64,000 nt of DNA. Source: Pseudomonadota bacterium. GTDB taxonomy: Bacteria > Pseudomonadota > Gammaproteobacteria > Pseudomonadales > JADFDG01. Positions 50,381 to 63,966 of this stretch are shown here, in pieces; the first letter of the stretch is position 1, and the number at the start of each line of letters is the position of its first letter. The position numbers and the translations under genes were made by a program. Where the stretch lies: contig JBMOOP010000110.1 in assembly GCA_049324495.1 (NCBI GenBank), positions 26,027 to 90,026 on the forward strand. Reading direction: 5' to 3'. The notes below the pieces were generated by a model. The model was not told the DNA's origin. It did not search any database and saw nothing but the letters and a program-made list of their open reading frames with translations.

Positions 50381-51250
50381 ATGGCCCCACCACCTTCCGC
50401 CCGCCCATCACCGGCAGGCGTCAACCCGCACGCGCAACAACCCACCTCGCTGGTGGCCTTGGCAGGCAGCCTGTGGCGCAATCGCCGGCTCATTGCACAG
50501 ATGACCCGGCGCGAAGTGGTGGGGCGCTACAAGGGTTCGGTGATGGGTCTGGCCTGGTCGTTCTTCAACCCGGTATTCATGCTGGCGGTGTACACCTTTG
50601 TTTTTTCCGTCGTCTTCAAGTCGCGCTGGGGCGTTGATGGCGATGAGAGCAAGATGCAGTTCGCTGTCGTGCTGTTTGTCGGCATGATCGTGCACGGTTT
50701 TTTTGCCGAAGTGCTCAACAGGGCACCAGGCCTGGTTCTATCCAACGTCAACTACGTCAAGAAAGTCGTGTTCCCGTTAGAGATACTGCCGGTCATTGCC
50801 ATGGGCGCGGCCTTGTTCCACAGCCTGATCAGTCTTGGCGTGTTGCTGTTCGCCTTTGTGATATTCAACGGTTACGTTCCCTGGACGGTGGTCTTGACGC
50901 CGCTGGTGCTGCTGCCGCTGGTCATCCTCACCCTGGGTTTCGCCTGGATGCTCGCCTCCCTCGGTGTATTTTTGCGCGATGTCGGCCAGACCATCGGCAT
51001 CATCACCATGGTCATGATGTTTCTGGCGCCGGTTTTTTACCCGGTTACGGCGCTGTCGGAAGAATTCCGGCCCTGGATCATGGCCAATCCGCTGACCTTC
51101 ATCATCGAGCAGGCCCGCGAGGTGCTGATCTGGGGGCGTATGCCGAACTGGTTGGGTTTGGGCGCCTATCTGGCGATGGCGATGGCGATGGCGTGGGCGG
51201 GTTACGCCTGGTTCCAGAAAACCAGGAAAGGGTTTGCCGATGTCCTCTGA
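50381..51250 (+). CDS. wzm: ABC-2 type polysaccharide export permease
   Basis: RREVVGRYKGSVMGLAWSFFNP signature, six TM helices. ATG directly abuts the upstream TGA. Confidence 0.88.
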   Translation: MAPPPSARPSPAGVNPHAQQPTSLVALAGSLWRNRRLIAQMTRREVVGRYKGSVMGLAWSFFNPVFMLAVYTFVFSVVFKSRWGVDGDESKMQFAVVLFVGMIVHGFFAEVLNRAPGLVLSNVNYVKKVVFPLEILPVIAMGAALFHSLISLGVLLFAFVIFNGYVPWTVVLTPLVLLPLVILTLGFAWMLASLGVFLRDVGQTIGIITMVMMFLAPVFYPVTALSEEFRPWIMANPLTFIIEQAREVLIWGRMPNWLGLGAYLAMAMAMAWAGYAWFQKTRKGFADVL

Positions 51251-52604
51251 TGCGATTTTTTCTGATGAAATTGCGATTCGCGTGCAAGGTCTGAGCAAGT
51301 GCTACCAGATCTACGAAACGCCGAGCGACCGGCTCAAGCAGTTTGTTGCGCCGCGATTGCAGCGCCTGGTCGGGCGGCCTGCCGGGCAGTATTTCCGTGA
51401 ATTCTGGGCGCTCAAGGATGTTTCGTTTGAGGTCAGGAAAGGCGAGACGGTCGGCATTATCGGGCGCAACGGCTCGGGCAAATCGACCTTGCTGCAAATC
51501 ATTTGCGGCACGCTCTCGCCCACCAGCGGCAGCGTGGAAACCTTTGGTCGGATTGCCGCCTTGCTGGAGTTAGGTTCCGGCTTTAATCCCGAATTCACGG
51601 GGCGTGAGAACGTCTACCTGAATGCCGCTGTATTGGGGCTCAGCAAGGAAGAAGTTGACGCGCGGTTCGATGCTATCGCGGCCTTTGCCGATATCGGCGA
51701 GTTCATCGAGCAGCCGGTAAAAACCTATTCGAGCGGGATGTTTGTGCGACTCGCTTTTGCAATCCAGGCGAATGTCGATCCGGAAATATTGATCGTCGAT
51801 GAGGCGTTGGCTGTTGGCGATGCCTACTTTGTGCATCGGTGCATGGCTCGTTTCCACGAGCTTCAGGAAAAGGGCACGACCATCGTGTTCGTCAGCCACG
51901 ACGCCAGCGCTGTAAAGCGCCTGTGCGCCAGGGCGCTGTGGTTCAAGAATGGGCACTTGATCCTGGACGGGAATGCGACGGTTGTTGTCGATGCATATCT
52001 CCAGGACTTGTTCGGCCTGGACGACAAGAAAACAAGCGGTACGGCTGTGGTGCTTTCCGAGGAAAAAATATCTGGGGGAAATAACGTCAGTCTGAAGCTG
52101 GCTTTGCCGCCAGGCGACGGCCGCCTTGGCGCGGGGGCGCTGGAAATCACCGGCATGCTGCTGTCTGACGCGCGTGGATTACCAGCTGGCACGGTCGGCT
52201 GGAATGAGGTTGTTTGCCTGCTGCTGGAAATACAGAACAAGGACGTGCCACCCGGCCAGGCCATCAGCACCGGTTACATCGTGCGAGACGGCAAGGGCAT
52301 CGAAATCGCCAGCGCGAATACGCGCTGGCAGGACGTCGAGGTTTTTGCGCCGGCGCGGGGCGGGTTTGTTCGCGTGTTGATCGAAGTGACAATCCCGATG
52401 CTGCATCCGGGTCATTACTCGCTGACGCCCAGTGTTTCCTCGATTGCCGGGGATCAGAAACAGGTTGTTCAGGATCGCATCCTGAATGCGCTTATTTTTG
52501 AAGTGACGACCAGCGAGGAAATCGTGACGCCCATTCGGTTTGCAACCAAATACTCTGTGTTGCCTTCGGGGCGACCGGCACCAGGTTCGGAGGAAATCGG
52601 CTGA
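51240..52604 (+). CDS. wzt: polysaccharide ABC exporter ATPase with about 190-aa C-terminal extension (Wzt-C-like)
   Basis: Walker A GRNGSGKST, signature YSSGM, Walker B ILIVDEAL. A beta-rich C-terminal domain follows about residue 255. Confidence 0.88.
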   Translation: MSSDAIFSDEIAIRVQGLSKCYQIYETPSDRLKQFVAPRLQRLVGRPAGQYFREFWALKDVSFEVRKGETVGIIGRNGSGKSTLLQIICGTLSPTSGSVETFGRIAALLELGSGFNPEFTGRENVYLNAAVLGLSKEEVDARFDAIAAFADIGEFIEQPVKTYSSGMFVRLAFAIQANVDPEILIVDEALAVGDAYFVHRCMARFHELQEKGTTIVFVSHDASAVKRLCARALWFKNGHLILDGNATVVVDAYLQDLFGLDDKKTSGTAVVLSEEKISGGNNVSLKLALPPGDGRLGAGALEITGMLLSDARGLPAGTVGWNEVVCLLLEIQNKDVPPGQAISTGYIVRDGKGIEIASANTRWQDVEVFAPARGGFVRVLIEVTIPMLHPGHYSLTPSVSSIAGDQKQVVQDRILNALIFEVTTSEEIVTPIRFATKYSVLPSGRPAPGSEEIG

Positions 52605-53425
52605 TGGATCGTTTCTTTATCTCCGGCTGCCAGCGATCGGGGACGACCATGCTGCGGTTGGTGCTTGAGTCGCATCCCGCGGTGCTGTGTGTCGACGAGG
52701 CGGTTGGTTACGACATCCTCGTCCGCGAATCAAAAGGCGAGCGTTGCGAGATTCCCGCCAAGGCGGGTGCGACGCTTCTCGGGTTCAAGATTCCGCGCTT
52801 CACGGAACAGTTGCTGTGGAAGGAGTTTGTCGATCTGGACTATGGCGCATTTCCGTCTTTCTACAAGGACGAAAAAGTCATTCATATTGTCAGGGATGCG
52901 CTGGACGTGATCGGATCGATGATGAAATTGAAGACCGAGGGCGGCGCGTCGTGGCTCGACCGATACGGCCGCAGCATTCTTCAGGCCCTGGTCAGGCACC
53001 CGAACATCAGTGCGCAATACCGGCAGGCATATGAGGATCTGGAGCACCGGGGGCTGCCGTCTCACCTGGTGGGGGCGCTTTATTGGCAGGTCAAGAACCA
53101 GGGGCTTCTTGACCTGCTTGAACACGGCAAGCCGGTCTACCCGGTCAGGTATGAATCCCTGGTTGGCTCGCCGGGGAGCGAGTTGCTGAAACTCGTTCAA
53201 TTCCTGGGCGTGAACTGGAGCGACTCGTTGCTCAATCACCCCGGAAGCCCGCATGCGGAGATCGATGAAAAGGGGCTGGCGATTGGCGAAACCGATCCGC
53301 TTCGAACCATCGATATGCAATCGATAGGCGGCCATCGTCAGGTGATGACCGAATTGCAGATCCAGGATGTCAGGCAGTACGTTGAATCTTTTTCAAAACG
53401 AATTGATTGCGCGATAACGACATGA
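52604..53425 (+). CDS. sulfotransferase-family protein
   Basis: 5'-PSB-like loop FISGCQRSGTTML. Later RYESLV (3'-PB-like). 273 aa, cytoplasmic. Confidence 0.75.
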   Translation: MDRFFISGCQRSGTTMLRLVLESHPAVLCVDEAVGYDILVRESKGERCEIPAKAGATLLGFKIPRFTEQLLWKEFVDLDYGAFPSFYKDEKVIHIVRDALDVIGSMMKLKTEGGASWLDRYGRSILQALVRHPNISAQYRQAYEDLEHRGLPSHLVGALYWQVKNQGLLDLLEHGKPVYPVRYESLVGSPGSELLKLVQFLGVNWSDSLLNHPGSPHAEIDEKGLAIGETDPLRTIDMQSIGGHRQVMTELQIQDVRQYVESFSKRIDCAITT

Positions 53426-56400
53426 TCTTTGACCAATACAGTCGCTACAAAGCCTGCGCCGATTTGCTTCGGCTTGCCGGCTTTTCTCCAGGTCAGTCTG
53501 TACTCGACGCAGGCAGTGGGCCGGAGTGCCTGTTCGGGCAATTCATGCCGGATGCTGCGATGACCTATGTCGATCCGCTGATCCCGGGCGGTTCCGGATC
53601 GAACCATATCACCGGCGACGTCTTTGCCGGCCAGCTGGATGGGCAGCTTTTTGATTGCGTGTCTTCTGTCGACGTTCTGGAGCATGTGCCGCCGCAAGAT
53701 CGCAAGGCAATGTTGCAGCGCTTGTCATCGTTGAGCCGGCATACCTTGATTCTCGGCTTTCCCACGTCCGACTCTTCCCGTGCGCTGGAGACGGACAGGG
53801 CCATCGAGGATCAATACCGGGCTGTTTATGGCCGGGATTATTCGTGGCTTGAGGAGCACCACAAGTTTGGTCTCCCGTCCCTCGCGGAAACGGTGACGCA
53901 GTTAAGTGAGTTGGGATGGCATTGCCAGTCGGTTGGCCACGGCCACGCGCCCTGGCTGCAGGAACTGCTGGGCTTTGTGATTTGCGCGTGGGAAATCCCC
54001 GGGTTGAAGGATGTCGTTCTGAAGATCAGCGATCGCTTCAATCGCGAATTGTATCCCCATGACTTTTTGTCCCCGCACTACCGGCAGTTTGTCATTGCCA
54101 CGCGCAATCCGGTGCCGCGCATCGTTCCGCCTGCGGGCGCAGGAAGCCGCAGTGATGCCGAGGCTCTCTTCCGGGCACTGATGGAAGATGCGCACCACCA
54201 GTATTTCGCCGCCAGCATGCGGCAACTTGTCGATCGGGAAATCCTGGTTGTCGAGCGGAATGCCGTGCTGGCTGAGCGCGACCACGAGGTCGGCGCCCTC
54301 AACGCGAAGATTCAGGAAGTGTCTGCCTGGGGCAAGAAATTGCAGGGTGAAATGGTCGAGCGCGACCGGCAGGTGGGCGCGCTCAATGCGCAGGTCGAGA
54401 AGGTCTCCATCTGGGGCAAAACCCTGCAGGACAGGGTAGCTGAGCGTAACGCGCAGATCGATGTGCTCAACGCAAAGATTGAAGAAATATCTACCTGGTC
54501 CCAGGCCATGCAGGGCGCGCGAGACGCGGCCCTTGCCGAGAAAGACGCGGCCCTTGCCGAGAAAGACGCGGCTCTTGCCGAGAAAGACGCGGCTCTTGCC
54601 GAGAAAGACGCGGCCCTTGCCGAGAAAGACGCGGCCCTTGCCGAGAAAGACGCGGCCCTTGCCGAGAAAGACGCGGCCCTTGCAGCGAGGGATGCAGCGC
54701 TTGCCGAAACCGGGGTGGTGAGCAACGAACGCGATGACGCGCTGCGCCTGCGCAATGATTACATGCGCCTGGTCGATCTCATGCGCAGCAGCCTGTCATG
54801 GCGCCTGACCATGCCGCTGCGGTTGATTGCCAGAATTTTCCGGCACGGCCTCGTCGGCGATGACCGCCGCCGGGTTGTCGACATGTTGCGGCGCCTGTAC
54901 CACCGGGTGCCGTTGCCGGCGGCAGTGCGATACCGTGTCAGCCAACACATGCAAAGTCGCCGGCGTGGTTTTGTGTTGTCGGTTGAACCGCAGAGGGATT
55001 CGCCGCTGTCGACCATGCCCGATTCTGCAGTCAGGCTGGAGGTTCAGCAGTCGGGCCTTCCGGATTACATCTTTTGGGGCGTGATTGACTGGCATTTCCG
55101 GCACCAGCGCCCGCAGCAGTTGGCGCAGGCGCTGGCCGACAGCGGGCGTCGCGTGTTTTACGTGTCGGAATCGATGGTCGACAATGAAGCGCCGGGCTTC
55201 GATATCGAGCCGCTCGGCGATACCGGCCGGCTGTTCAGCATCAGGTTGTTCGTGAAGGGCGCGCCGGTGATTTATCACTCGGTTCCGACCGGCGACCATA
55301 TCGTGCAGTTGCGGCAAAGCGTGGGCGAATTGCTGGCCTGGGCCAACACCGGCTCGACCGTGTCGATGGTCCAGCACCCGTTCTGGCTCAACGTGGCCGC
55401 TGCGCTGCCTGACGGCCGGCTTGTATACGACTGCATGGATCACCACGAAGGCTTCGGCAACGTGCCGCCGGAAATGATTGCCATGGAGCGGGCGCTGCTC
55501 GCCAGCGCCGACCTCACCATCACGACATCTTCCTGGCTGGACCAGATCGTTGCCGGCAAGACCGCTAACCGCGCCATCATCCGCAATGCCGGCGAGTTCG
55601 AGCATTTTGCACGGGTGCCGGGCGACATCTTCCGCGATCCGAAGGGGCGGCGCGTCATCGGCTACTACGGCGCCATTGCCGAGTGGTTCGATATCGAACT
55701 GGTCGCGGCGATTGCGCAGAAATTTTCGGATTGCTGCATCCTGCTGATCGGCTCCGATACCGTGAACGCCAAGGGCGTGCTCGGCAAATATTCCAACGTC
55801 ACGTTTACCGGCGAGATTCCCTATGCGGAACTGCCGCGCTACCTGCATGCGTTTGATGTGTGCCTGCTGCCGTTCAGGGTCATCCCACTGACGCTGGCCA
55901 CCAACCCGGTGAAGGTCTACGAATACCTGAGTGCGGGAAAGCCGGTCGTGGTCGTGGATCTGCCCGAGATGGCGCAGTTCGGCGACCTGGTCGATGTTGC
56001 GCGGAATCATGACGAGTACTGCGCTGCCATTGAGCGGCACCTCGCACTAAAAGCTGCTCCGGCGGCAGTGGCAGCACGGCAGGAGTTCGGCCGCAACCAG
56101 ACTTGGGGTCACCGTGCGACGAAACTGATCGAGCATGTTGAATCGGCAGCGGGAGATCCGCCGGTCAGCGTGATCGTTGTCACGTACAACAATATCGAAT
56201 TGACCAAGGCTTGCCTCGCGAGCCTCGATGCGCATTCGCACTACGGCAACATCGAGATCATCGTCGTCGATAACGCGTCCAGCGACGGCTCACCGGAATT
56301 TCTTGCCGACTGGGTAAAGCAGGCGGGTAACCGCAAGCTGATCCTGAATACTGACAACCGGGGTTTTGCGGCGGCGAACAACCAGGGCCTGGCGATTGCA

Positions 56401-56940
56401 TCCGGTGATTATCTCGTCCTGCTGAACAATGACACCTACGTTACGCCCGGCTGGGTCAGGACGATGGTGAACCACATGCGTCGCAATACCGGCCTCGGCC
56501 TGCTGGGGCCGGTGACGAACAATATCGGCAACGAAGCGCGCATCGAGATTTCCTACGAGTCGATGGACGAGATGCTGGTTCGGTCTCGCGAACACACGCG
56601 TCGCCGGATCGGCCGGATATTCCCGCTGCGCACTGCCGCGTTTTTCTGCGTGATGATTCCCAGGAAGACGTATGAGGCCGTTGGCCCGCTCGACGAGGCG
56701 TTCGGCCGTGGCTTCTTCGAAGATGACGATTATTGTCGCCGCGTGGAGCAACTCGGATTGCAGGTCGGTTGTGCCGAAGATGTGTTCATTCACCACCACC
56801 TTTCCGCGTCGTTCAACAAGCTGAAGCAGGAAGACCGGCAGCGTCTCTTCGAAGAAAACAAGAAAATCTACGAGGCGAAGTGGGGTGCGTGGATTCCGCA
56901 TACCTATGAACGGGTCGGCGAGGGGGGGGCGCCGCCGTGA
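53422..56940 (+). CDS. four-module protein: class-I SAM methyltransferase / coiled coil / GT4-like (TuaH-like) glycosyltransferase / GT2 glycosyltransferase
   Basis: MTase motifs VLDAGSGPE, FDCVSSVDVLEHV. Heptad repeats 54274-54711. GT4-like VIGYYGAIAEWFDIELV...NPVKVYEYLSAGKPVV. GT2 VSVIVVTYNN...VVDNASSDGS...NNDT...FEDDDY. ATGA overlap with the sulfotransferase gene. Confidence 0.85.
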   Translation: MIFDQYSRYKACADLLRLAGFSPGQSVLDAGSGPECLFGQFMPDAAMTYVDPLIPGGSGSNHITGDVFAGQLDGQLFDCVSSVDVLEHVPPQDRKAMLQRLSSLSRHTLILGFPTSDSSRALETDRAIEDQYRAVYGRDYSWLEEHHKFGLPSLAETVTQLSELGWHCQSVGHGHAPWLQELLGFVICAWEIPGLKDVVLKISDRFNRELYPHDFLSPHYRQFVIATRNPVPRIVPPAGAGSRSDAEALFRALMEDAHHQYFAASMRQLVDREILVVERNAVLAERDHEVGALNAKIQEVSAWGKKLQGEMVERDRQVGALNAQVEKVSIWGKTLQDRVAERNAQIDVLNAKIEEISTWSQAMQGARDAALAEKDAALAEKDAALAEKDAALAEKDAALAEKDAALAEKDAALAEKDAALAARDAALAETGVVSNERDDALRLRNDYMRLVDLMRSSLSWRLTMPLRLIARIFRHGLVGDDRRRVVDMLRRLYHRVPLPAAVRYRVSQHMQSRRRGFVLSVEPQRDSPLSTMPDSAVRLEVQQSGLPDYIFWGVIDWHFRHQRPQQLAQALADSGRRVFYVSESMVDNEAPGFDIEPLGDTGRLFSIRLFVKGAPVIYHSVPTGDHIVQLRQSVGELLAWANTGSTVSMVQHPFWLNVAAALPDGRLVYDCMDHHEGFGNVPPEMIAMERALLASADLTITTSSWLDQIVAGKTANRAIIRNAGEFEHFARVPGDIFRDPKGRRVIGYYGAIAEWFDIELVAAIAQKFSDCCILLIGSDTVNAKGVLGKYSNVTFTGEIPYAELPRYLHAFDVCLLPFRVIPLTLATNPVKVYEYLSAGKPVVVVDLPEMAQFGDLVDVARNHDEYCAAIERHLALKAAPAAVAARQEFGRNQTWGHRATKLIEHVESAAGDPPVSVIVVTYNNIELTKACLASLDAHSHYGNIEIIVVDNASSDGSPEFLADWVKQAGNRKLILNTDNRGFAAANNQGLAIASGDYLVLLNNDTYVTPGWVRTMVNHMRRNTGLGLLGPVTNNIGNEARIEISYESMDEMLVRSREHTRRRIGRIFPLRTAAFFCVMIPRKTYEAVGPLDEAFGRGFFEDDDYCRRVEQLGLQVGCAEDVFIHHHLSASFNKLKQEDRQRLFEENKKIYEAKWGAWIPHTYERVGEGGAPP
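54274..54525 (+). repeat. 3 x 84-bp diverged in-frame tandem repeat (28-aa units = 4 heptads each)
   Basis: ERDHEVGALNAKIQEVSAWGKKLQGEMV / ERDRQVGALNAQVEKVSIWGKTLQDRVA / ERNAQIDVLNAKIEEISTWSQAMQGARD. Units start at 54274, 54358 and 54442. Confidence 0.85.
54523..54711 (+). repeat. 9 x 21-bp in-frame tandem repeat (heptad DAALAEK)
   Basis: Seven copies of GACGCGGC(C/T)CTTGCCGAGAAA (54523-54669) differing only by one synonymous C/T. Two diverged copies follow (DAALAAR, DAALAET). Confidence 0.95.
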
Positions 56941-57311
56941 GCGGCCAGCTCTTCCGGTTCTTGGCAACCGGTGCCCTCGCGACGGCGCTGCAGTATATCG
57001 TGCTCTGGTTCGGCGTCGAGATGCTCGCCTGGCAGCCAGTGCGGGCGTCGGGCGCCGGCTACCTGGCGGGTTCTGTACTGAGTTATGTACTCAACTATTT
57101 CTTCACGTTCGGAAGCGATCGCAGCCATCCCGAAACGGTCATGAAGTTCTATGTAATGGTTGCGATCGGCTGGTGCGTGAATACTGGGTCAATGGCGTTC
57201 CTGACCCAGTTCCTGCACTGGGGTGTCTGGGTTTCCCAGGTCCTCGCTACGATCATCACGCTCGTCTGGAATTTCCTGATTTCCCGTCACATTGTCTTTC
57301 GGTCGAACTGA
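56937..57311 (+). CDS. GtrA-family small membrane protein
   Basis: FRFLATGALATALQYIVLWF..., four TM helices, 124 aa. GTGA overlap with the upstream gene. Confidence 0.8.
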   Translation: MSGQLFRFLATGALATALQYIVLWFGVEMLAWQPVRASGAGYLAGSVLSYVLNYFFTFGSDRSHPETVMKFYVMVAIGWCVNTGSMAFLTQFLHWGVWVSQVLATIITLVWNFLISRHIVFRSN

Positions 57312-57312
57312 T

Positions 57313-58290
57313 ATGAAAAAGCTTATCTCAGTCATTGTCCCCGCCTTCAACGAGGAGGATGTCATCGATATCTTCCACGCCAGCATGAGTGAGGTGTTCG
57401 ACAGGCTGCCGCAATATCGCTGCGAGATGATATTCGTCAACGATGGGAGTTCGGACCGTACCCGGGAGATCATCCTCGCGCTCGCGGGCCGGGATCCGCG
57501 CGTTTCGGTGATTTCCCTGTCACGCAATTTCGGCAAGGAAGCGGCGATGACGGCCGGGTTCGATCATGCGCGCGGCGATGCCGTCGCGATCTTCGACGTC
57601 GACCTGCAGGATCCGCCGGATCTACTCTTCCAGTTCGTCGAACACTGGGAGAAGGGTTATGACGTCGTCTATGCGAAGCGCACCCACCGGGACGGCGAGT
57701 CCTGGGTGAAGAAGGTCACCGCGGCGGCTTTCTACCGCGTGATACAGAAGCTCTCTCGTGTTTCCATCCCGCAGGATACCGGCGACTGCCGCCTGATGAG
57801 CCGCCGGGTCGTGCAGGAACTTATCCGGCTGCGCGAGCATCACCGCTTCATGAAGGGGCTGTTCGCGTGGGTAGGCTTTCCGTCGATCGCGGTTGAGTAC
57901 CGCCGGGATCCCCGCGTCGCCGGGGAAACCAAGTTCAACTACTGGAAGCTCTGGAACTTCGCGCTCGAGGGCATCACGTCATTCACCATCGCGCCGTTGA
58001 AAATCGCCATGTACGTGGGTTTCCTGATCGCGGCAGGCGCTTTTCTCATGGGCGGCTGGATCGTACTCAAGACGCTGCTGTGGGGTGAGGCGGTTCGTGG
58101 TTACCCGACCCTCATCGTCACCGTCCTGTGCATGGGTGGCGTCCAGCTCTTCTTCATCGGGGTGCTGGGCGAGTACTTGGGGCGGATTTTCGGTGAGACC
58201 AAGAATCGGCCGCTCTACCTGGTCGAGTGTTTCCAGCCTTCGGCCGTGAGTGCAGGTGGTCCCGTTGAGCCGGAAACGGATCGGGGTTGA
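57313..58290 (+). CDS. polyprenyl-phosphate glycosyltransferase (GtrB/ArnC-like GT2)
   Basis: ISVIVPAFNEE...FVNDGSSDRT...FDVDLQDPP. Two C-terminal TM helices. Confidence 0.85.
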   Translation: MKKLISVIVPAFNEEDVIDIFHASMSEVFDRLPQYRCEMIFVNDGSSDRTREIILALAGRDPRVSVISLSRNFGKEAAMTAGFDHARGDAVAIFDVDLQDPPDLLFQFVEHWEKGYDVVYAKRTHRDGESWVKKVTAAAFYRVIQKLSRVSIPQDTGDCRLMSRRVVQELIRLREHHRFMKGLFAWVGFPSIAVEYRRDPRVAGETKFNYWKLWNFALEGITSFTIAPLKIAMYVGFLIAAGAFLMGGWIVLKTLLWGEAVRGYPTLIVTVLCMGGVQLFFIGVLGEYLGRIFGETKNRPLYLVECFQPSAVSAGGPVEPETDRG

Positions 58291-58356
58291 ATACTGGATT
58301 GGGCGGCGACGCCTTTCGCGCCGCTGCCAACGGTGAATTGAGGATGTTTCGACGCC

Positions 58357-59388
58357 ATGAAAATGCTGGGTGATCTGTTCAGCGGCCGCGAGAACAACAT
58401 GAACCTGATGCGGCTAGTGGCCGCATTCGCGGTCATATACGGGCATGCCTCCGCCATTACGGGGCATGGTCCGGGAGATATATTCCTGCAGCTTGTTGGT
58501 TTCAAGTTCATCGGTGGCGTCGCAGTCGACGTGTTCTTTGTGTTAAGCGGCTTCCTCGTTTGTGCGAGTGCGATGAGTGTCAACGGGCTCAAGTACTACT
58601 TCGCATCGCGCCTGCTGCGCATCTACCCGGCGTTGTTTGTGTGCGTTGGCTTGTCGGTGCTGGTCATCGGGCCGCTGCTGAGTGTCTCGGATATGTACTG
58701 GTCCGATCCGCAGACCTGGCGGTACCTGTTCAACAACGCCACGGCTTTCCGCACGGAATACTTCCTGCCCGGCGTCTTTACGAGCCTGCATGACCCGGCG
58801 GTGAATGGCTCGCTCTGGTCGCTCCAGGTCGAGGTCAGGCTCTATCTGATCCTCGCGTTGGCGGCGATCCTCGGTGTGTTCCGCAACAGGGCGCTGTTCA
58901 ATTTCCTGTTCTTCGCCACACTGGTCATCGGTTACCTGAAGCCTGACGTCTTTGGCGGTTTTCTCGGTCCGGAGAACCATCGCCACGTCGCGATGATGTT
59001 TCTGATCGGGGCTTTCGCGTGGATCAACCGTGACCAGATTCCGATGAGCCCGGTGTTCATGCTGGCCTTGCTGTTCTTCGCTGCGACCTTGCACGGCACC
59101 GACAAGTTCAACTATGCCTATTCGATCCTCCTGCCCTATGCCGTGCTCTACATCGCGGTAGCTCCGGGTGGGCGCTGGTTTGATCGCTTCGGTGATTACT
59201 CGTACGGCGTGTACCTGTATGGCTGGCTTTCGCAGCAACTGGTGATGGCCGCATATCCCGACGCGAGCAATGCGGCCAACGCCTGGCTCGGCGCTCTGCT
59301 CGCCCTGGCGTTCGCGATGATGTCATGGCATTTCATCGAGAAGCCGTCCCTTGCCTACAAGAAGTTGTTTGCCCGGAAGGTCGCATGA
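58357..59388 (+). CDS. acyltransferase-3 family integral membrane O-acyltransferase
   Basis: NNMNLMRLVAAFAVIYGHA, GVAVDVFFVLSGFL, about 10 TM helices. Confidence 0.85.
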   Translation: MKMLGDLFSGRENNMNLMRLVAAFAVIYGHASAITGHGPGDIFLQLVGFKFIGGVAVDVFFVLSGFLVCASAMSVNGLKYYFASRLLRIYPALFVCVGLSVLVIGPLLSVSDMYWSDPQTWRYLFNNATAFRTEYFLPGVFTSLHDPAVNGSLWSLQVEVRLYLILALAAILGVFRNRALFNFLFFATLVIGYLKPDVFGGFLGPENHRHVAMMFLIGAFAWINRDQIPMSPVFMLALLFFAATLHGTDKFNYAYSILLPYAVLYIAVAPGGRWFDRFGDYSYGVYLYGWLSQQLVMAAYPDASNAANAWLGALLALAFAMMSWHFIEKPSLAYKKLFARKVA

Positions 59389-60803
59389 GCATGTACACGA
59401 ATGCCGGGGTCACGCGTACGCTGCAGGACGTCGCGCTAATTTTCTGCCTGTCGCTGTTGGGGCTGCTGTGGTTGATTGCCAACCCGGGGTACTACAGCCA
59501 CGACGAATTGCAAAAGCTCGATCATGTCGTCCGCTATGGCTTCCAGGAATACCTGAAAGCGTATGTCGTTATCGTCCAAGGCAGTGAGTTTGGCACGCCG
59601 GTGCGGCCGTTCGCCTTCTTCATTCAGGGTGTACTCGCGCTGGGGATGAGGGATTTCCCTTTCCTGGTCCATCTGTTCGACGTGCTCACCCACGCGGCGG
59701 TTGCGGCGCTGGTTTACCTGGCATTGCGGCGGTTCGCCGTCGAACGGCGCGTGGCGCTGGTGGCTGCCGCCGGTTTTGCGCTGAGCCCCATGGCCGTCAT
59801 TGCGGCCGGCTGGTCTGCGGCACTGATGGATCGCTGGTATGTCCTGTTCGGTTTGCTGGCGCTGCTTGCCGTCGAGCGCTTCCTGAGCGGCACACAACAA
59901 AAGCGCTATCTCGTCCTGCTGTTCCTTTGGGCGTCGCTCGCGATCCTGTCCAAGGAAACGGCGATCATGCTGGCCGGGACGATGATGATCTTCATCCTGA
60001 TACGTCCGCAGATCCTGAGGGAACGGAAGTTCTGGGTCGCGCTGGCAGTGTTCGCGCTCCCTGCGCTGCTGTATCTGTTGTATCGCTTGCCGGCCATCGT
60101 TTCCTCGTTCGGCAATCCGGCCGGAGGCGCCTACAAGGCATCGACGGGCAACCTGCCGGAAGGGATCGTCCTCTATCTCGCCTATCCCTTTCTCTATTCG
60201 GTGACGGAGGCAATCAACTGGGTGTTCGTCCCGAAGTTCTGGGTGGGCGTGGCAGTCGCTGCGAACCTTGCCATCCCGCTATTGCTGTGGCGCCTGAAGA
60301 GTGCACGGTTCGCGCTCGGTTATGTCTTTTTCTATTTTCTGTTCCTGCTGCCGGTCCTATTGATCCCGAACCGGGGAGCACATTACCTGTATGGGTCGTC
60401 GATCGTGGTTTGTGTCGCGCTGGCATGCCTGCTCTGCGATCGGGCATCGTGGTTCAGTCCGCACCGTATCGCTGCCCTCGGCCTAGCCGCCGTTTTGCTG
60501 GTGCACACCGTTTACCTGCAGGTATTTGTATATTCGATCGGGTCATGCATGGACTCGGCGATGACTGGCGTCGAAGCGAGCTATCTTGGCATCGACAGGC
60601 CTTCTGCGCTCGAGTTGCGCGCGGAGCCCGGTGCTCCTGGCCATGTTCTTCACCGGTTCACCACCGGGCGCGAGCAGATCGGAGAAAACTATCCGGTGAA
60701 GATGACGGTCGCTGAATGGGATGCACCGTCTGACGGCGCGACGCCGGTTCTGATCATGGACAGGCAGTGTCGGGTTTTTGCCCGCCTTGCACCGAAGCGA
60801 TAG
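59385..60803 (+). CDS. GT-C-fold (ArnT/PMT/GtrC-like) polytopic membrane glycosyltransferase
   Basis: Multiple TM helices. First-loop acidic motif YYSHDELQKLD. ATGA overlap with the acyltransferase gene. Follows the GtrA/GtrB-like pair. Confidence 0.6.
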   Translation: MSMYTNAGVTRTLQDVALIFCLSLLGLLWLIANPGYYSHDELQKLDHVVRYGFQEYLKAYVVIVQGSEFGTPVRPFAFFIQGVLALGMRDFPFLVHLFDVLTHAAVAALVYLALRRFAVERRVALVAAAGFALSPMAVIAAGWSAALMDRWYVLFGLLALLAVERFLSGTQQKRYLVLLFLWASLAILSKETAIMLAGTMMIFILIRPQILRERKFWVALAVFALPALLYLLYRLPAIVSSFGNPAGGAYKASTGNLPEGIVLYLAYPFLYSVTEAINWVFVPKFWVGVAVAANLAIPLLLWRLKSARFALGYVFFYFLFLLPVLLIPNRGAHYLYGSSIVVCVALACLLCDRASWFSPHRIAALGLAAVLLVHTVYLQVFVYSIGSCMDSAMTGVEASYLGIDRPSALELRAEPGAPGHVLHRFTTGREQIGENYPVKMTVAEWDAPSDGATPVLIMDRQCRVFARLAPKR

Positions 60804-61977: not shown

Positions 61978-63083
61978 GGCGACTGGTTTATCTTTCGCCG
62001 GTTCCGTGGGCGAGCTACGCCCAGCGTCCGCATCACTTCGTGAGATGGTTTCGCGCGCGCACCCGCGGCGAGGTGCTGTGGGTGGATCCGTACCCGACGC
62101 GTTTGCCGACGGCCGCTGACTGGCGACGGGTTGGTCGCGCCGATGAGCCTGTCGATATCGTTGTGCCCGATTGGCTGCGCCTCGTCCGGCCCAGGGCGCT
62201 CCCGATCGAACCATTGCCCGGCTCGACCTTCATCAATCGCCCGTTGTGGTGCAATACCCTGGAGCGTGCCAGCGATTTTCTGGCGGCGGGCGATGCCGTC
62301 ATCTGCATCGGCAAGCCATCCGCGCTCGCGCTGGATGTGTTGCGCGGCGCGGCAGGCGTGCCGGCAGTCTATGACGCGATGGACGATTTTCCGGCGTTCT
62401 ATTCGGGATTGTCGAAGGTATCGATGCGCAGGCGTGAGGGGACAATCCTCGCGCAGGTTTCCCGGGTGCTGGTTTCTTCGACTGCGCTGGCGGGGCGTTT
62501 CGCTGCGCAAGATATCGAGGCGACGCTGGCACTCAATGCCTGCGCGACCGATACGCTACCGCCGGTCGCGGCTCTGCCGCCACGACCGGCGAAAGAGGTG
62601 ATTGGTTACGTGGGTACCATTGGCGCCTGGTTTGACTGGGAATTGGTGACGAGAATCGCAAAAGAGAACCCGCAGGCTCAGCTCAGGTTGATCGGGCCGC
62701 TGTATCTGCCACCGCCAGGCGCCTTGCCGGCAAACGTGTCGCTGGTGCCGGCTTGCGATCATGCAGCGGCGATCCGCGCCATGACGGAATTTTCTGTGGG
62801 CTTGATTCCTTTCCGTCTGACGCCGCTGACGGCATCGGTCGACCCGATAAAATATTACGAGTACCGGGCGCTCGGGTTGCCAGTAGCCTCGACGCGATTT
62901 GGTGAGATGGCGCTGCGCGGGCAAAATGACGGTGTACTTTTGATTGGGGCAGAAGATGAGTTGTCCAATCTGGTAAGGGTAGCGAGTCATCTTGTGCCTA
63001 CGCACGCACAGCAGCTGGAGTTCCGCACGAAGAATTCCTGGGAGGCTCGCTTCGATGCAGCCGGTATTATCGGCGGACTGTGA
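61974..63083 (+). CDS. GT4-like (TuaH-like) glycosyltransferase, paralog of the third module of the 53422 protein
   Basis: VIGYVGTIGAWFDWELV and LIPFRLTPLTASVDPIKYYEYRALGLPVA align with VIGYYGAIAEWFDIELV and LLPFRVIPLTLATNPVKVYEYLSAGKPVV. TTG start overlaps the wecB TGA. Confidence 0.8.
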   Translation: MRRLVYLSPVPWASYAQRPHHFVRWFRARTRGEVLWVDPYPTRLPTAADWRRVGRADEPVDIVVPDWLRLVRPRALPIEPLPGSTFINRPLWCNTLERASDFLAAGDAVICIGKPSALALDVLRGAAGVPAVYDAMDDFPAFYSGLSKVSMRRREGTILAQVSRVLVSSTALAGRFAAQDIEATLALNACATDTLPPVAALPPRPAKEVIGYVGTIGAWFDWELVTRIAKENPQAQLRLIGPLYLPPPGALPANVSLVPACDHAAAIRAMTEFSVGLIPFRLTPLTASVDPIKYYEYRALGLPVASTRFGEMALRGQNDGVLLIGAEDELSNLVRVASHLVPTHAQQLEFRTKNSWEARFDAAGIIGGL

Positions 63084-63966
63084 CATCATCATCGTCAACC
63101 ACAATGCCGGCGCCTTGCTCGCCCGCTGTGTCGGTGCCGTACAGGGTGTCGCATCACGGATTATCGTCGTCGACAATGACTCGCAGGACGACAGCCTGGC
63201 GTTGTTGCAACAGGCAGTGCCGCAGAACGAGCGGCTGCAACTAATCCGCACCGGCCGCAATCTCGGCTTTTCCGCCGGCTGCAACATCGGCATTGCCGCA
63301 TCAACGGCGAATCACCTGCTGTTCCTGAATCCGGATTGCGTCATGCAACCTGGTTCGCTGCAGCGCCTGCTTGCCGTGTTGCAACATGATGCAACGCTCG
63401 GCATGGTCGGCGGGCTGCTGACCAACCCGGACGGCACCGAGCAAGCCGGCGGCCGGCGTTCGGTGCCAACACCTTGGCGATCCTTGGTGCGGGTTCTTGG
63501 CCTTGCACATTTTTCGTCACGCTGGCCGGCATTATTTCCCGATTTCAACCTGCACGAGCAGCCTCTGCCTGCGGAGCCGGTCGAAGTGGAAGCAATTTCC
63601 GGTGCACTCATGCTGGTTCGCCGCCAGGCGATGGAAGATGTCGGTCTGTGGGATGAGGGCTACTTTCTACACTGCGAAGATCTCGATTGGTGCATGCGCT
63701 TTCGCCAGAGTGGCTGGAAAATTTTTTTTGTTCCGGATGCGCCGGTTGTGCACGAGCAGGGTGCATGCAGCAGGGCACGACCGGTATTTGTCGAATGGCA
63801 CAAGCATCGCGGCATGATGCGTTTCTACGGCAAGTTTTTCCGCAATCAATATCCGGGCGTGCTGGGCTGGCTGATCAATCTCGCGGTGTGGCTGCGCTTT
63901 GCTGCCGTGGTGTTGCGCATACAGGCCCGTAAGCTGTTGCCGGGTGCGAAGGTTACGCATGAGTGA
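63055..63966 (+). CDS. GT2 glycosyltransferase (rhamnosyltransferase-like)
   Basis: CDIIIVNHNAG...VVDNDSQDDS...LNPDC...CEDLDWCMR. Confidence 0.85.
   Translation: MQPVLSADCDIIIVNHNAGALLARCVGAVQGVASRIIVVDNDSQDDSLALLQQAVPQNERLQLIRTGRNLGFSAGCNIGIAASTANHLLFLNPDCVMQPGSLQRLLAVLQHDATLGMVGGLLTNPDGTEQAGGRRSVPTPWRSLVRVLGLAHFSSRWPALFPDFNLHEQPLPAEPVEVEAISGALMLVRRQAMEDVGLWDEGYFLHCEDLDWCMRFRQSGWKIFFVPDAPVVHEQGACSRARPVFVEWHKHRGMMRFYGKFFRNQYPGVLGWLINLAVWLRFAAVVLRIQARKLLPGAKVTHE

What the first reader, a model, noticed from the sequence alone, without database searches (positions are those of the whole stretch)
54523..54711. Seven near-identical 21-bp heptad-encoding repeats inside the putative ruler: possible slippage-tunable chain length
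Seen in sequence:
- GACGCGGC(C/T)CTTGCCGAGAAA occurs seven times head-to-tail, with a single synonymous C/T difference in copies 3 and 4.
- Two diverged copies follow.
- Each unit encodes exactly one heptad (DAALAEK).

Inference:
- Near-identity at the DNA level, not just the protein level, implies recent expansion or ongoing homogenisation.
- Any gain or loss is in-frame and changes the coil by one heptad, about 1 nm at the textbook 0.15 nm per residue.
- If the coil measures polymer length, this is a built-in contingency locus for modal O-chain length. That would be length variation rather than on/off phase variation.
Basis: partly seen in the sequence, partly recalled or inferred. Interest (0 to 1): 0.78.

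Follow-up and report, generated by a model that had tools for sequence, protein, structure and literature searches.

The report
Repeat-expanded spacer in O-antigen synthase
Seven near-identical 21-bp repeats have recently lengthened the helical spacer between the chain-capping and chain-building parts of an O-antigen synthase, and relatives change this spacer in whole 7-residue steps, so bacteria may tune sugar-chain length this way.

Summary
Window 54523-54711 holds nine in-frame 21-bp units: seven are DAALAEK at 95-100% DNA identity, followed by DAALAAR and DAALAET. It is the only strong tandem repeat in the 64-kb window.

The host gene (53422-56940) encodes a SAM-methyltransferase-fold N-domain, a helical spacer of about 200 aa, a basic amphipathic base, and GT4-like plus GT2 modules. 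It follows wzm and a wzt carrying a Wzt_C module. This is the layout of the known terminator-ruler-polymerase proteins WbbB and K. pneumoniae O7 ORF6.

- Syntenic relatives (polymerase region 89-92% identical) have 4 or 5 diverged heptads, so the window gained 4-5 heptads recently.
- Across the family the spacer is a tandem-repeat hotspot, and 34 of 41 arrays have periods that are multiples of 21 bp.
- Of 26 close homologue pairs that differ in spacer length, 25 differ by a multiple of 7 residues.
- The window has the longest spacer sampled (198 aa, about 29 nm if straight).
- The N-domain swaps together with Wzt_C, which supports its role as terminator.

Not shown: that length sets chain length in this protein, and that copy number varies within a population. 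The "contingency locus" reading therefore remains a hypothesis. I rate this a new variant of a known kind.

The parts
50381..51250 (+). wzm: ABC-2 type permease of the O-polysaccharide exporter
   Evidence: Pfam ABC2_membrane, E=6.5e-24. It is 90-94% identical in the syntenic relatives.
51234..52604 (+). wzt: ABC ATPase with a C-terminal Wzt_C carbohydrate-binding module (aa 298-428, nt ~52125-52517)
   Evidence: Pfam ABC_tran E=6.4e-24 and Wzt_C E=7.1e-15, above the curated cutoff. The C-terminal module co-varies with the N-domain type of the synthase.
52604..53425 (+). Stand-alone sulfotransferase-family gene. Its TGA stop overlaps the ATG of the synthase (ATGA).
   Evidence: Pfam Sulfotransfer_3 E=5.2e-16 and Sulfotransfer_1 E=1.2e-9. 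Overlap read directly in the sequence. It is conserved at 93-95% in L099 and L100 and absent from L001.
53422..56940 (+). Host gene: a 1172-aa single-polypeptide synthase (MTase, helical spacer, basic base, GT4-like module, GT2 module). It equals protein P0001. The mechanical ORF starts at TTG 53407, but homologues start at MIFDQYSRY (ATG 53422).
   Evidence: (homologue N-termini), plus 43.
53422..54111 (+). N-terminal class I SAM-dependent methyltransferase-fold domain (aa 1-230), the putative chain terminator
   Evidence: Pfam Methyltransf_23 gives only a weak hit (E=9.8e-5, below cutoff). The AF2 domain model has pLDDT 95.3. All top 50 Foldseek PDB hits are SAM methyltransferases, the best being 4htf at E=8.7e-11. 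Motif I (VLDAGSGPE) and DVLEHV are readable in the sequence.
54148..54789 (+). Predicted alpha-helical spacer (aa 243-456), the putative ruler
   Evidence: DSSP on the AF2 model gives helices 243-310, 318-396, 403-430 and 435-456, but at low pLDDT because it is a monomer model. The heptad a/d periodicity is constant from aa ~278 to 361, shifts register at MQGARD, and is constant again through the array.
54274..54522 (+). Three older, diverged four-heptad units of 28, 28 and 27 aa (aa 285-367; ERDxxVGALNAKIQEVSAWGKKLQGEMV type) immediately upstream of the array
   Evidence: Visible in the translation. TRF detects them as period-84 arrays in L099 and L001.
54523..54669 (+). Seven near-identical 21-bp units (DAALAEK x7), the recently expanded core of the array
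   Evidence: adjacent-unit identity is 95-100%, and TRF scores 310.
54670..54711 (+). Two diverged units (DAALAAR, DAALAET), orthologous to the last two heptads of relatives
   Evidence: The CTTGCAGCGAGG tail of unit 8 is identical to that of the L100 'AAR' unit, while its 5' half matches the amplified unit.
54796..54822 (+). Conserved post-spacer anchor motif S-W-R-L-T-M-P-L-R (aa 459-467)
   Evidence: Nearly invariant columns in alignment A2. It lies about 92 aa before the GT start motif in most of the homologues where both motifs were found.
54787..54996 (+). Basic amphipathic region (aa 456-525), the putative membrane-proximal base of the spacer
   Evidence: Net charge +12, with 18-residue hydrophobic moments of 0.58-0.68. 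AF2 predicts helices 458-475, 479-495 and 500-521.
55054..56151 (+). GT-B fold glycosyltransferase module (GT4-like, TuaH-like; aa ~545-910)
   Evidence: Pfam Glyco_trans_1_4 E=6.4e-11. NCBIfam TuaH E=1.6e-25, below the equivalog cutoff. Foldseek hits MshA, BshA and PimA at E~1e-13 to 1e-10.
56164..56841 (+). GT-A fold GT2 glycosyltransferase module (aa 915-1140)
   Evidence: Pfam Glycos_transf_2 E=1.7e-28. PDB sequence hits to chondroitin synthase K4CP at 2.9e-12. Foldseek GT-A hits.

Best explanation
The array is a recent, lineage-specific, in-frame expansion inside the long alpha-helical spacer of a single-polypeptide O-polysaccharide synthase of the ABC-transporter (Wzm/Wzt) pathway.

Anatomy of the protein:
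- A SAM-methyltransferase-fold domain sits at the far end of the spacer and is the likely chain terminator.
- A basic amphipathic segment and two glycosyltransferase modules (GT4-like and GT2) sit at the near, membrane end and form the polymerase.

Proposed mechanism, by analogy with WbdD and WbbB: the growing undecaprenyl-linked chain can only be capped once it is long enough to reach the terminator. Spacer length therefore sets the modal chain length. The capped end is then read by the Wzt_C module for export.

In this family the spacer is built from, and evolves by, duplication and loss of 21-, 42- or 84-bp units (1, 2 or 4 heptads). Length therefore changes in steps of about 1 nm without breaking the helical register. 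The window allele gained 4-5 heptads relative to its nearest relatives. It has the longest spacer in the sample (198 aa, about 29 nm if straight) and is predicted to make longer chains than they do.

What is shown: the repeat, its recency, the domain architecture and context, the family-wide heptad-quantised length variation, and the co-variation of the N-domain with Wzt_C.

What is inferred: the terminator activity, the ruler function in this protein, and the effect on chain length.
For: 1. Repeat and frame.

2. Recency. Relatives L099, L100 and L001 are syntenic. Their polymerase region is 89-92% identical to the window's (whole protein 84-88%). They carry 5, 4 and 5 heptads with unit-to-unit DNA identity of 57-64%, against 95-100% in the window.

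3. Architecture. The N-domain is a MTase fold. A helical region spans aa 243-456 with heptad periodicity. The base has charge +12 and is amphipathic. The GT-B and GT-A modules are confident. wzm and a wzt with Wzt_C lie immediately upstream.

4. Literature. An extended coiled coil is described as the characteristic marker of terminator proteins in this pathway. It was shown to act as a ruler in WbdD and WbbB. K. pneumoniae O7 ORF6 has the same layout: N-terminal MTase, coil, two GT modules (PMC11231755). Insertions or truncations in the WbdD coil raise or lower modal length (PMC5082667).

5. Terminator assignment. Three relatives with 87-92% identical polymerase regions carry three different N-domains: MTase fold, sulfotransferase-like, and pyruvyl transferase. 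Each is paired with a different Wzt_C module, while the Wzt NBD stays 70-93% identical.

6. Family-wide lability.
- 33 of 57 homologues have at least 3 consecutive near-identical heptads, and the unit variant differs between lineages.
- The spacer region holds 1.08 TRF arrays per kb against 0.084 elsewhere. Periods are multiples of 21 in 34 of 41 arrays there, against 2 of 57 elsewhere.
- Spacer length ranges from 27 to 198 aa, and its value mod 7 is restricted: counts for residues 0-6 are [0,0,22,0,2,15,6].
- 25 of 26 length-differing pairs at >=80% identity differ by multiples of 7, in at least 5 clades.
Against: - There are no functional data for this protein or any member of its family.
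- The N-domain matches methyltransferases only at fold level (Pfam hit below cutoff; WbdD is not among the top 50 structural hits). Its substrate is unknown.
- A stand-alone sulfotransferase lies next door and could be the true cap-forming enzyme.
- The array is weakly amphipathic: one Leu per heptad, Lys at the other core position, hydrophobic moment 0.11.
- The AF2 monomer model has pLDDT below 50 in the array and breaks the helix there. An extended, rigid geometry is therefore assumed, not shown.
- Differences in multiples of 7 between close relatives follow automatically from slippage of 21-bp units. They do not by themselves prove selection on length or phase.
- In WbdD, chain length also depends on polymerase:terminator stoichiometry (PMC11231755).
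- The copy number comes from a MAG assembly.
Confidence: 0.68

Rival explanations
1. This is a true contingency locus. The array slips at high frequency within a clonal population, so cells with different O-chain modal lengths coexist and selection by phage, complement or grazers picks among them. Variation is in length rather than on/off.
For: - Seven units at 95-100% identity form a good slippage or unequal-recombination substrate.
- The C/C/T/T/C/C/C pattern and the conversion of unit 8 imply several separate duplication or conversion events, not one.
- Bacterial VNTRs of comparable copy number mutate at about 5e-5 to 2e-4 per generation in B. pseudomallei (PMC1853098).
- Lineage-specific homogenised arrays recur across the family.
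- Relatives at 92-94% identity already differ by one heptad.
Against: - There is no within-population or within-species evidence. All observed differences are between lineages whose polymerase regions differ by 6% or more.
- In the nearest relatives the heptads are old and diverged, and their count is stable in pairs at 96-98% identity: P0002/P0122 and P0003/P0123 have equal lengths.
- The VNTR rates cited are for 6-12 bp units with 9-22 copies. A 21-bp unit with 7 copies is probably slower.
- Searches for same-species variants failed.
Confidence: 0.22
2. This is a neutral minisatellite in a tolerant linker. The helical segment only tethers or oligomerises the domains. Its length is unconstrained, and the expansion has no effect on the polysaccharide.
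For: - Spacer length varies 7-fold across the family (27-198 aa) without loss of the gene.
- The array is Ala-rich and of low complexity. Similar Ala/Glu/Lys heptads occur in unrelated proteins.
- The amphipathicity is weak and the model confidence low.
- Multiples of 7 follow from the 21-bp slippage mechanism itself.
Against: - Across deep divergence (about 50-60% identity), spacer length mod 7 stays in a few classes and never takes the values 0, 1 or 3. Array periods are almost exclusively 21, 42 or 84 bp and not other in-frame sizes such as 18 or 24. This suggests the helical phase between the end domains is constrained.
- In the two experimentally tested systems, the equivalent segment does set chain length (PMC11231755, PMC5082667).
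- In a fused polymerase-terminator the stoichiometry is fixed, which leaves spacer length as the obvious variable (inference).
Confidence: 0.2
3. This is an assembly artefact. The true array is shorter or longer, and short-read assembly of a metagenome mis-counted a perfect repeat.
For: The source is a MAG ('MAG: glycosyltransferase [Pseudomonadota bacterium]'). The assembler and read type could not be recovered.
Against: - The two GCT units split the array, so the longest perfect stretch is about 76 bp (units 5-7 plus the start of unit 8). That is within reach of common read and k-mer lengths.
- Comparable arrays exist in isolate genomes: Methylobacter luteus L004, 84 bp x 3.8, and Janthinobacterium sp. 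S3T4 L006, 21 bp x 7.6.
- Even if the count is off by one or two, an expanded homogenised array is still present.
Confidence: 0.07

Closest known systems
WbbB of Klebsiella pneumoniae O12 / Raoultella terrigena (single-protein polymerase, terminator and coiled-coil ruler; Williams et al. 2017, as described in PMC11231755)
   Same: Both are one polypeptide with an N-terminal terminator module, a central extended helical or coiled-coil spacer, and two C-terminal GT modules forming the polymerase. Both belong to the ABC-transporter pathway with a Wzt that reads the capped end.
   Different: - The WbbB terminator is a GT99 beta-Kdo transferase, whereas here it is a SAM-MTase-fold domain.
- The GT modules belong to different families.
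- No sequence homology was demonstrated here.
- WbbB is not reported, in the papers I could read, to carry near-identical DNA-level heptad repeats.
ORF6 of Klebsiella pneumoniae O7 (PMC11231755)
   Same: Both have an N-terminal methyltransferase, a central coiled coil and two C-terminal GT modules. [quoted passage not shown]
   Different: - ORF6(O7) has an extra 223-aa kinase domain and an Ig-like CBM between the MTase and the coil, and it adds methyl-phosphate.
- The window protein goes from the MTase (aa 1-230) almost directly into the helix, so there is no room for a kinase.
- The ORF6 polymerase modules are GT2+GT2, whereas here they are GT4-like+GT2.
WbdD of E. coli O9a/O8 and K. pneumoniae O3/O5 (Hagelueken et al. 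2015, as described in PMC5082667 and PMC11231755)
   Same: Both hold a methyltransferase terminator away from the membrane on an extended coiled coil, with an amphipathic membrane-binding region at the base. Coil insertions and deletions shift the modal O-chain length. Wzt CBM specificity is matched to the cap.
   Different: - In WbdD the polymerase (WbdA) is a separate protein recruited to the base, so stoichiometry also affects length.
- O9a WbdD has a kinase.
- Its coil is a parallel trimer, whereas the oligomeric state here is unknown.
- Length changes in WbdD were engineered, not natural repeat polymorphisms.
In-frame VNTRs and minisatellites in bacterial coding regions
   Same: Both are tandem, near-identical, in-frame units whose gain or loss by slippage or unequal recombination changes protein length without a frameshift. 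B. pseudomallei VNTR loci, some inside coding sequences, mutate at about 5e-5 to 2e-4 per generation (PMC1853098).
   Different: From my own knowledge, not checked with the tools here, the well-known coding examples (streptococcal M protein, Alp-family proteins, adhesin stalks) are surface-exposed proteins in which length itself is the phenotype. Here the repeat lies in a cytoplasmic enzyme. The predicted phenotype is indirect: the length of a polysaccharide made by that enzyme.

Membership tests
Terminator-ruler-polymerase proteins of the ABC-transporter-dependent O-polysaccharide pathway (WbbB / ORF6-O7 layout) | The gene lies in a cluster with the wzm and wzt ABC exporter genes | tested here: met
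   wzm at 50381-51250 (ABC2_membrane, 6.5e-24) and wzt at 51234-52604 (ABC_tran, 6.4e-24) lie directly upstream on the same strand.
Terminator-ruler-polymerase proteins of the ABC-transporter-dependent O-polysaccharide pathway (WbbB / ORF6-O7 layout) | Wzt carries a C-terminal carbohydrate-binding module that recognises the chain-terminating cap | tested here: met
   The domain is present: Pfam Wzt_C at 55.7 bits against a cutoff of 30.4. Its sequence co-varies with the N-domain type of the synthase in L001 and L101. Cap binding itself cannot be tested here.
Terminator-ruler-polymerase proteins of the ABC-transporter-dependent O-polysaccharide pathway (WbbB / ORF6-O7 layout) | A chain-terminating enzyme module at the end of the coil distal from the polymerase | tested here: inconclusive
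   A confident class I SAM-MTase fold sits at the N-terminus. It is swapped for a pyruvyl transferase or a sulfotransferase-like domain in close relatives. Terminator activity is not testable with these tools, and a neighbouring sulfotransferase is an alternative cap enzyme.
Terminator-ruler-polymerase proteins of the ABC-transporter-dependent O-polysaccharide pathway (WbbB / ORF6-O7 layout) | An extended coiled coil between the terminator and the polymerase | tested here: inconclusive
   About 215 residues are predicted helical. Heptad a/d periodicity is clear in the three four-heptad units. The array has only one large hydrophobic residue per heptad. Oligomerisation and extension were not testable (monomer model, low pLDDT). 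No dedicated coiled-coil predictor was available.
Terminator-ruler-polymerase proteins of the ABC-transporter-dependent O-polysaccharide pathway (WbbB / ORF6-O7 layout) | Polymerase GT modules fused C-terminal to the coil | tested here: met
   A GT-B (GT4-like) module at aa ~545-910 and a GT2 module at aa 915-1140, from Pfam, PDB sequence search and Foldseek.
Terminator-ruler-polymerase proteins of the ABC-transporter-dependent O-polysaccharide pathway (WbbB / ORF6-O7 layout) | Changing coil length changes the modal chain length | not testable with these tools
   This needs engineered alleles and LPS gels. It is established only for WbdD and WbbB (PMC11231755, PMC5082667).
WbdD family (sequence or structural homologue) | Homology of the terminator domain to the WbdD methyltransferase (and kinase) | tested here: not met
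   The PDB sequence search found no WbdD hit; the only N-domain hit was a marginal Mg-protoporphyrin MTase at E=0.041. WbdD is not among the top 50 Foldseek hits of the N-domain model. There is no kinase domain. The protein shares the same fold superfamily only.
Contingency locus (hypermutable simple-sequence repeat) | A tract of near-identical tandem repeats | tested here: met
   7.7 copies at 98% identity.
Contingency locus (hypermutable simple-sequence repeat) | Short unit (typically 1-8 nt) whose slippage switches expression on or off by frameshift or promoter spacing | tested here: not met
   The unit is 21 nt and always in frame, so any change is a length change and not an on/off switch.
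Contingency locus (hypermutable simple-sequence repeat) | Copy number varies at high frequency within clonal populations | not testable with these tools
   No same-species sequences or reads were available. Variation is shown only between lineages.

The most novel reading that the evidence does not exclude
Heptad-unit minisatellites are a built-in, family-wide tuning knob of O-antigen rulers. In fused terminator-spacer-polymerase synthases, slippage of 21-bp units changes spacer length in steps of about 1 nm often enough to create standing variation in O-chain modal length within populations. This would be 'length-phase variation' of LPS driven by a cytoplasmic enzyme, and the window allele (9 heptads, the longest spacer seen) would be a recent product of it.
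Probability: 0.25. Interest if true: 0.8.

Novelty: new variant of a known kind. Interest (0 to 1): 0.6.

Why it matters
O-antigen chain length affects resistance to complement, phage and antimicrobials. In the ABC-transporter pathway the ruler principle rests, in the papers I could read, on two prototypes (WbdD and WbbB), with engineered length changes described for WbdD.

This family offers natural allelic series of one ruler. Close relatives with nearly identical polymerases have spacers differing by 1 to 5 heptads. That turns two questions into direct comparisons: whether spacer length sets chain length outside the model systems, and how linear the relation is.

It also suggests a simple genetic route, repeat slippage, by which bacteria could retune chain length without touching the catalytic domains. 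The same proteins show swapping of terminator domains together with the matching Wzt reader module. This points to new candidate chain caps (pyruvate, sulfate).

If the repeat turns out to vary within populations, it would be a new kind of surface variation.

Tried and rejected
- **Metagenome scan for same-species variants** with the spacer region. Only relatives at 51% identity or less were found, so there was no population information.
- **Cluster look-up**. The window protein is a singleton cluster. The other clusters gave P0121-P0123, useful for between-lineage comparison only.
- **Protein search with the coil plus anchor only**. It was swamped by unrelated low-complexity Ala/Glu/Lys repeat proteins (Rpn/PDDEXK-type, RNase Y N-terminal-like) and was not informative.
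- **Protein search with an array-deleted synthetic query**. Nothing passed the threshold, not even the source protein. This is a limitation of the tool's word index.
- **Look-up of the window's own contig** to learn the assembler. It is not on record.
- **Primary ruler papers** (Hagelueken 2015, Williams 2017). They are not held, so I relied on their description in PMC11231755 and PMC5082667.
- **PDB sequence search**. It identified only the GT2 module and nothing significant for the N-domain or spacer. A fold search on a separate N-domain model was needed.
- **A C->T mutation followed by duplication as the only history**, considered and rejected. GCT is also the state in the orthologous units of relatives, so the C/T pattern may be partly ancestral. 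The conclusion kept is only that several duplication or conversion events occurred.
- **An overlapping minus-strand ORF** (54312-54755), considered and rejected. It is one of many mechanical ORFs in this GC-rich DNA, and nothing supports it.
- **The exhaustive representative-protein search** was not run, because it would not resolve close variants.
Full report
**1. The observation**

Reading window 54300-54900 and laying the region out codon by codon shows nine consecutive 21-bp units from 54523 to 54711.
- Units 1, 2, 5, 6 and 7 are GACGCGGCCCTTGCCGAGAAA.
- Units 3 and 4 differ only by a synonymous GCC>GCT change. All seven encode DAALAEK.
- Units 8 and 9 (DAALAAR, DAALAET) are diverged.

Tandem Repeats Finder reports 54522-54683, period 21, 7.7 copies, 98% matches, no indels, score 310. 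It is the only strong tandem repeat in the 64-kb window.

**2. The host gene**

The array lies in frame in a long ORF (mechanical start TTG 53407, stop at 56940). Homologues begin at MIFDQYSRY, so the real start is ATG 53422. This ATG overlaps the TGA stop of the upstream gene as ATGA. The 1172-aa product is identical to P0001, from an NCBI MAG labelled Pseudomonadota bacterium.

Its domains are as follows.
- **N-domain, aa 1-230.** Pfam gives only a weak Methyltransf_23 hit. A separate AlphaFold2 model is very confident (pLDDT 95.3). All top 50 Foldseek PDB matches are class I SAM-dependent methyltransferases, the best at E=8.7e-11.
- **Helical region, aa 243-456.** It is predicted almost entirely helical, but with low confidence, as expected for a monomer model.
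- **Anchor and base.** A nearly invariant motif SWRLTxPLR (aa 459-467) opens a 70-residue segment with net charge +12. That segment contains helices with hydrophobic moments of 0.58-0.68. I read it as a membrane-proximal base.
- **Polymerase modules.** A GT-B module (GT4-like; Foldseek hits to MshA, BshA and PimA) and a GT2 GT-A module follow.

Directly upstream on the same strand are wzm, a wzt with a Wzt_C carbohydrate-binding module above Pfam's cutoff, and a sulfotransferase-family gene.

**3. Comparison with known systems**

Kelly et al. (PMC11231755) make three relevant points.
- An extended coiled coil is a characteristic marker of chain-terminating proteins in ABC-transporter-dependent glycan assembly.
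- The coil was established as a molecular ruler in WbdD and WbbB.

They describe K. pneumoniae O7 ORF6 as an N-terminal methyltransferase, a central coil and two C-terminal GT modules. That is the window protein's layout, except that ORF6 has an extra kinase and CBM, and its GTs are GT2+GT2. A review (PMC5082667) summarises that insertions or truncations in the WbdD coil raise or lower the modal chain length.

The window protein therefore works like these proteins by architecture. It is not a demonstrable sequence homologue of WbdD.

**4. Is the N-domain the terminator?**

An internal comparison supports it. Close relatives with 87-92% identical polymerase regions carry three different N-domains:
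- the MTase fold (window, P0002, P0003);
- a sulfotransferase-like domain (P0121 = L001; Pfam 25.7 bits, just below cutoff);
- a polysaccharide pyruvyl transferase (P0004 = L101; 122 bits).

Where the N-domain is the same (L099, L100), the Wzt C-terminal module is 91% and 88% identical to the window's. Where it is swapped (L001, L101), the Wzt NBD remains 75% and 70% identical. The C-terminal module shows no detectable similarity there, although it is still a Pfam Wzt_C domain.

This pattern fits a cap-forming enzyme and its cap reader moving together as a cassette. The junction lies inside the spacer.

**5. Recency of the expansion**

L099 and L100 are syntenic with the window from the TPR, OMP, serA and FAD-oxidase genes through wzm, wzt and the sulfotransferase. 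At the position of the array they carry the following heptads:
- L099 and L001: DGALAEK DLAIAER NAALAEK DAALAAR DAAL(I)VEA, five heptads;
- L100: DGALAEK DAVLAER STALAAR DAALVEA, four heptads.

Their unit-to-unit DNA identity averages 57-64%, against 95-100% for the window's seven units.

The last two window units are orthologous to the last two units of the relatives. The 5' half of unit 8 has been converted to the amplified type. The window lineage has therefore replaced 2-3 old heptads with seven homogenised ones, a net gain of 28 or 35 residues (about 4.1 or 5.2 nm at 0.148 nm per residue). The arrangement C,C,T,T,C,C,C cannot arise from a single duplication, so several events occurred.

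**6. A trait of the whole family**

In homologues sharing the N-domain, the segment before the SWRLT anchor is mostly made of near-perfect heptads. The unit variant differs from lineage to lineage: ERDAAVA, ERDSAMA, ERDTAIA, ERDRQIV, ERDKQIT, ERDAAVV, ERDAALD, DRDTALA and others.

- Of 57 homologues with the anchor, 33 have at least 3 and 20 have at least 4 consecutive near-identical heptads. The window has the longest run.
- At DNA level, in 55 loci, the 700 nt upstream of the anchor contain 1.08 TRF arrays per kb, against 0.084 per kb elsewhere.
- 34 of 41 arrays there have periods of 21, 42 or 84 bp, against 2 of 57 elsewhere.
- Nine arrays are at least 90% matched. They include arrays from an isolate genome (Methylobacter luteus L004), MAGs (L010, L013, L016, L025) and metagenome contigs (L081, L083).
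- The distance from a conserved YFxxS motif at the helix start to the anchor spans 27-198 residues. Its value mod 7 is 2 in 22 proteins, 5 in 15, 6 in 6 and 4 in 2, and never 0, 1 or 3.
- Among 33 pairs at least 80% identical over the polymerase region, 26 differ in spacer length. In 25 of these the difference is a multiple of 7, in at least five clades.

The window protein has the longest spacer in the sample.

One caveat applies. Multiples of 7 between close relatives follow from slippage of 21-bp units. Only the deep conservation of the mod-7 classes, and the near-absence of other in-frame periods, argue for a constraint on helical phase.

**7. Register and nature of the helix**

The three upstream four-heptad units have a clean a/d pattern, with V/L/I at a, and L/V or the Arg of ERD at d. 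At MQGARD the register shifts by four residues, which is a stutter-type discontinuity. The array then reads E-K(d)-D-A-A-L(a)-A. That gives one large hydrophobic residue per heptad and a basic residue at the other core position.

The array is acidic (net charge -9) and weakly amphipathic. It may be a weak coiled coil or an Ala-rich stable helix. Either would act as a spacer of about 1 nm per heptad, but the extended geometry is assumed.

**8. What remains open**

I could not test whether copy number varies within a population. No same-species sequences turned up and the source contig is not on record. Pairs at 96-98% identity have equal spacer lengths, and pairs at 92-94% already differ.

Bacterial VNTRs with shorter units and more copies mutate at 5e-5 to 2e-4 per generation (PMC1853098). 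The rate for 21 bp x 7 copies is unknown.

I found no paper in the held library describing natural repeat-driven variation of an O-antigen ruler. The library is incomplete, so this is not proof of novelty.

**9. Verdict**

- The recent in-frame heptad expansion in a ruler-type spacer is well supported.
- Evolutionary tunability in heptad quanta is shown across the family.
- A rapidly switching contingency locus, and an actual effect on chain length, are still hypotheses.

I rate this a new variant of a known kind, of moderate to high interest because it supplies natural allelic series for a direct test.

Noticed in passing
L001:2054-2953 (P0121 N-domain); L101:1186-2385 (P0004 N-domain); Wzt C-termini at L001:~1455-2050 and L101:~610-1183: Close relatives with 87-92% identical polymerase regions carry a sulfotransferase-like or a pyruvyl-transferase domain in place of the MTase N-domain. 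Each is paired with a different Wzt_C module. This suggests cap-plus-reader cassettes, and possibly sulfate or pyruvate as chain-terminating caps. Neither is mentioned as a cap in the papers I read.
   Followed up: partly
window 56937-60803: The window synthase lacks the ~265-aa C-terminal Zn-ribbon plus methyltransferase domain that P0002, P0003 and P0005 have; tblastn finds no trace of it in the window. The gene is followed instead by a GtrA-like ORF (56937-57311, GTGA overlap with the synthase stop), a GtrB-like GT2 (57292-58290), an acyltransferase_3 (58357-59388) and a PMT_2/ArnT-like membrane protein (59325-60803). This looks like a three-component periplasmic glycosylation plus O-acetylation set.
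   Followed up: partly
window 52604-53425: A stand-alone sulfotransferase-family gene sits between wzt and the synthase and is translationally coupled to it (ATGA overlap). It is conserved at 93-95% in L099 and L100 and absent from L001, where the synthase N-domain is itself sulfotransferase-like. It could modify the chain terminus, alone or together with the MTase.
   Followed up: partly
window 54274-54522: Three older four-heptad units of 28, 28 and 27 aa (ERDxxVGALNAKIQEVSAWGKKLQGEMV type) lie immediately upstream of the array. The spacer therefore grew at two periodicities. The same 84-bp period recurs at 91-95% identity in other genomes (L004, L025, L038, L029).
   Followed up: partly
Family-wide (proteins P0001-P0123); window aa 362-368 (nt ~54505-54525): Spacer lengths fall into two main register classes (mod 7 = 2 or 5) that differ by 3-4 residues. 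In the window clade this corresponds to a stutter-type shift at MQGARD between the four-heptad units and the heptad array. No explanation was tested for why just these classes occur.
   Followed up: partly
window 51171-51199: A small in-frame hexanucleotide repeat, (TGGCGA) x 3.8, lies in the C-terminal part of wzm and encodes the AMAMAMAW stretch. It is perfect but short (TRF score 46).
   Followed up: no
window 63251-63299: A weak 24-bp x 2.0 tandem repeat (80% match, score 63) lies inside the last GT2 gene (62992-63966). It is probably chance.
   Followed up: no
Proteins P0124-P0241: Ala/Glu/Lys heptads resembling DAALAEK occur in many unrelated proteins, including the PF12784 Rpn/PDDEXK family and the PF12072 RNase Y N-terminal-like family. 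The repeat sequence alone is therefore not diagnostic of this family.
   Followed up: no
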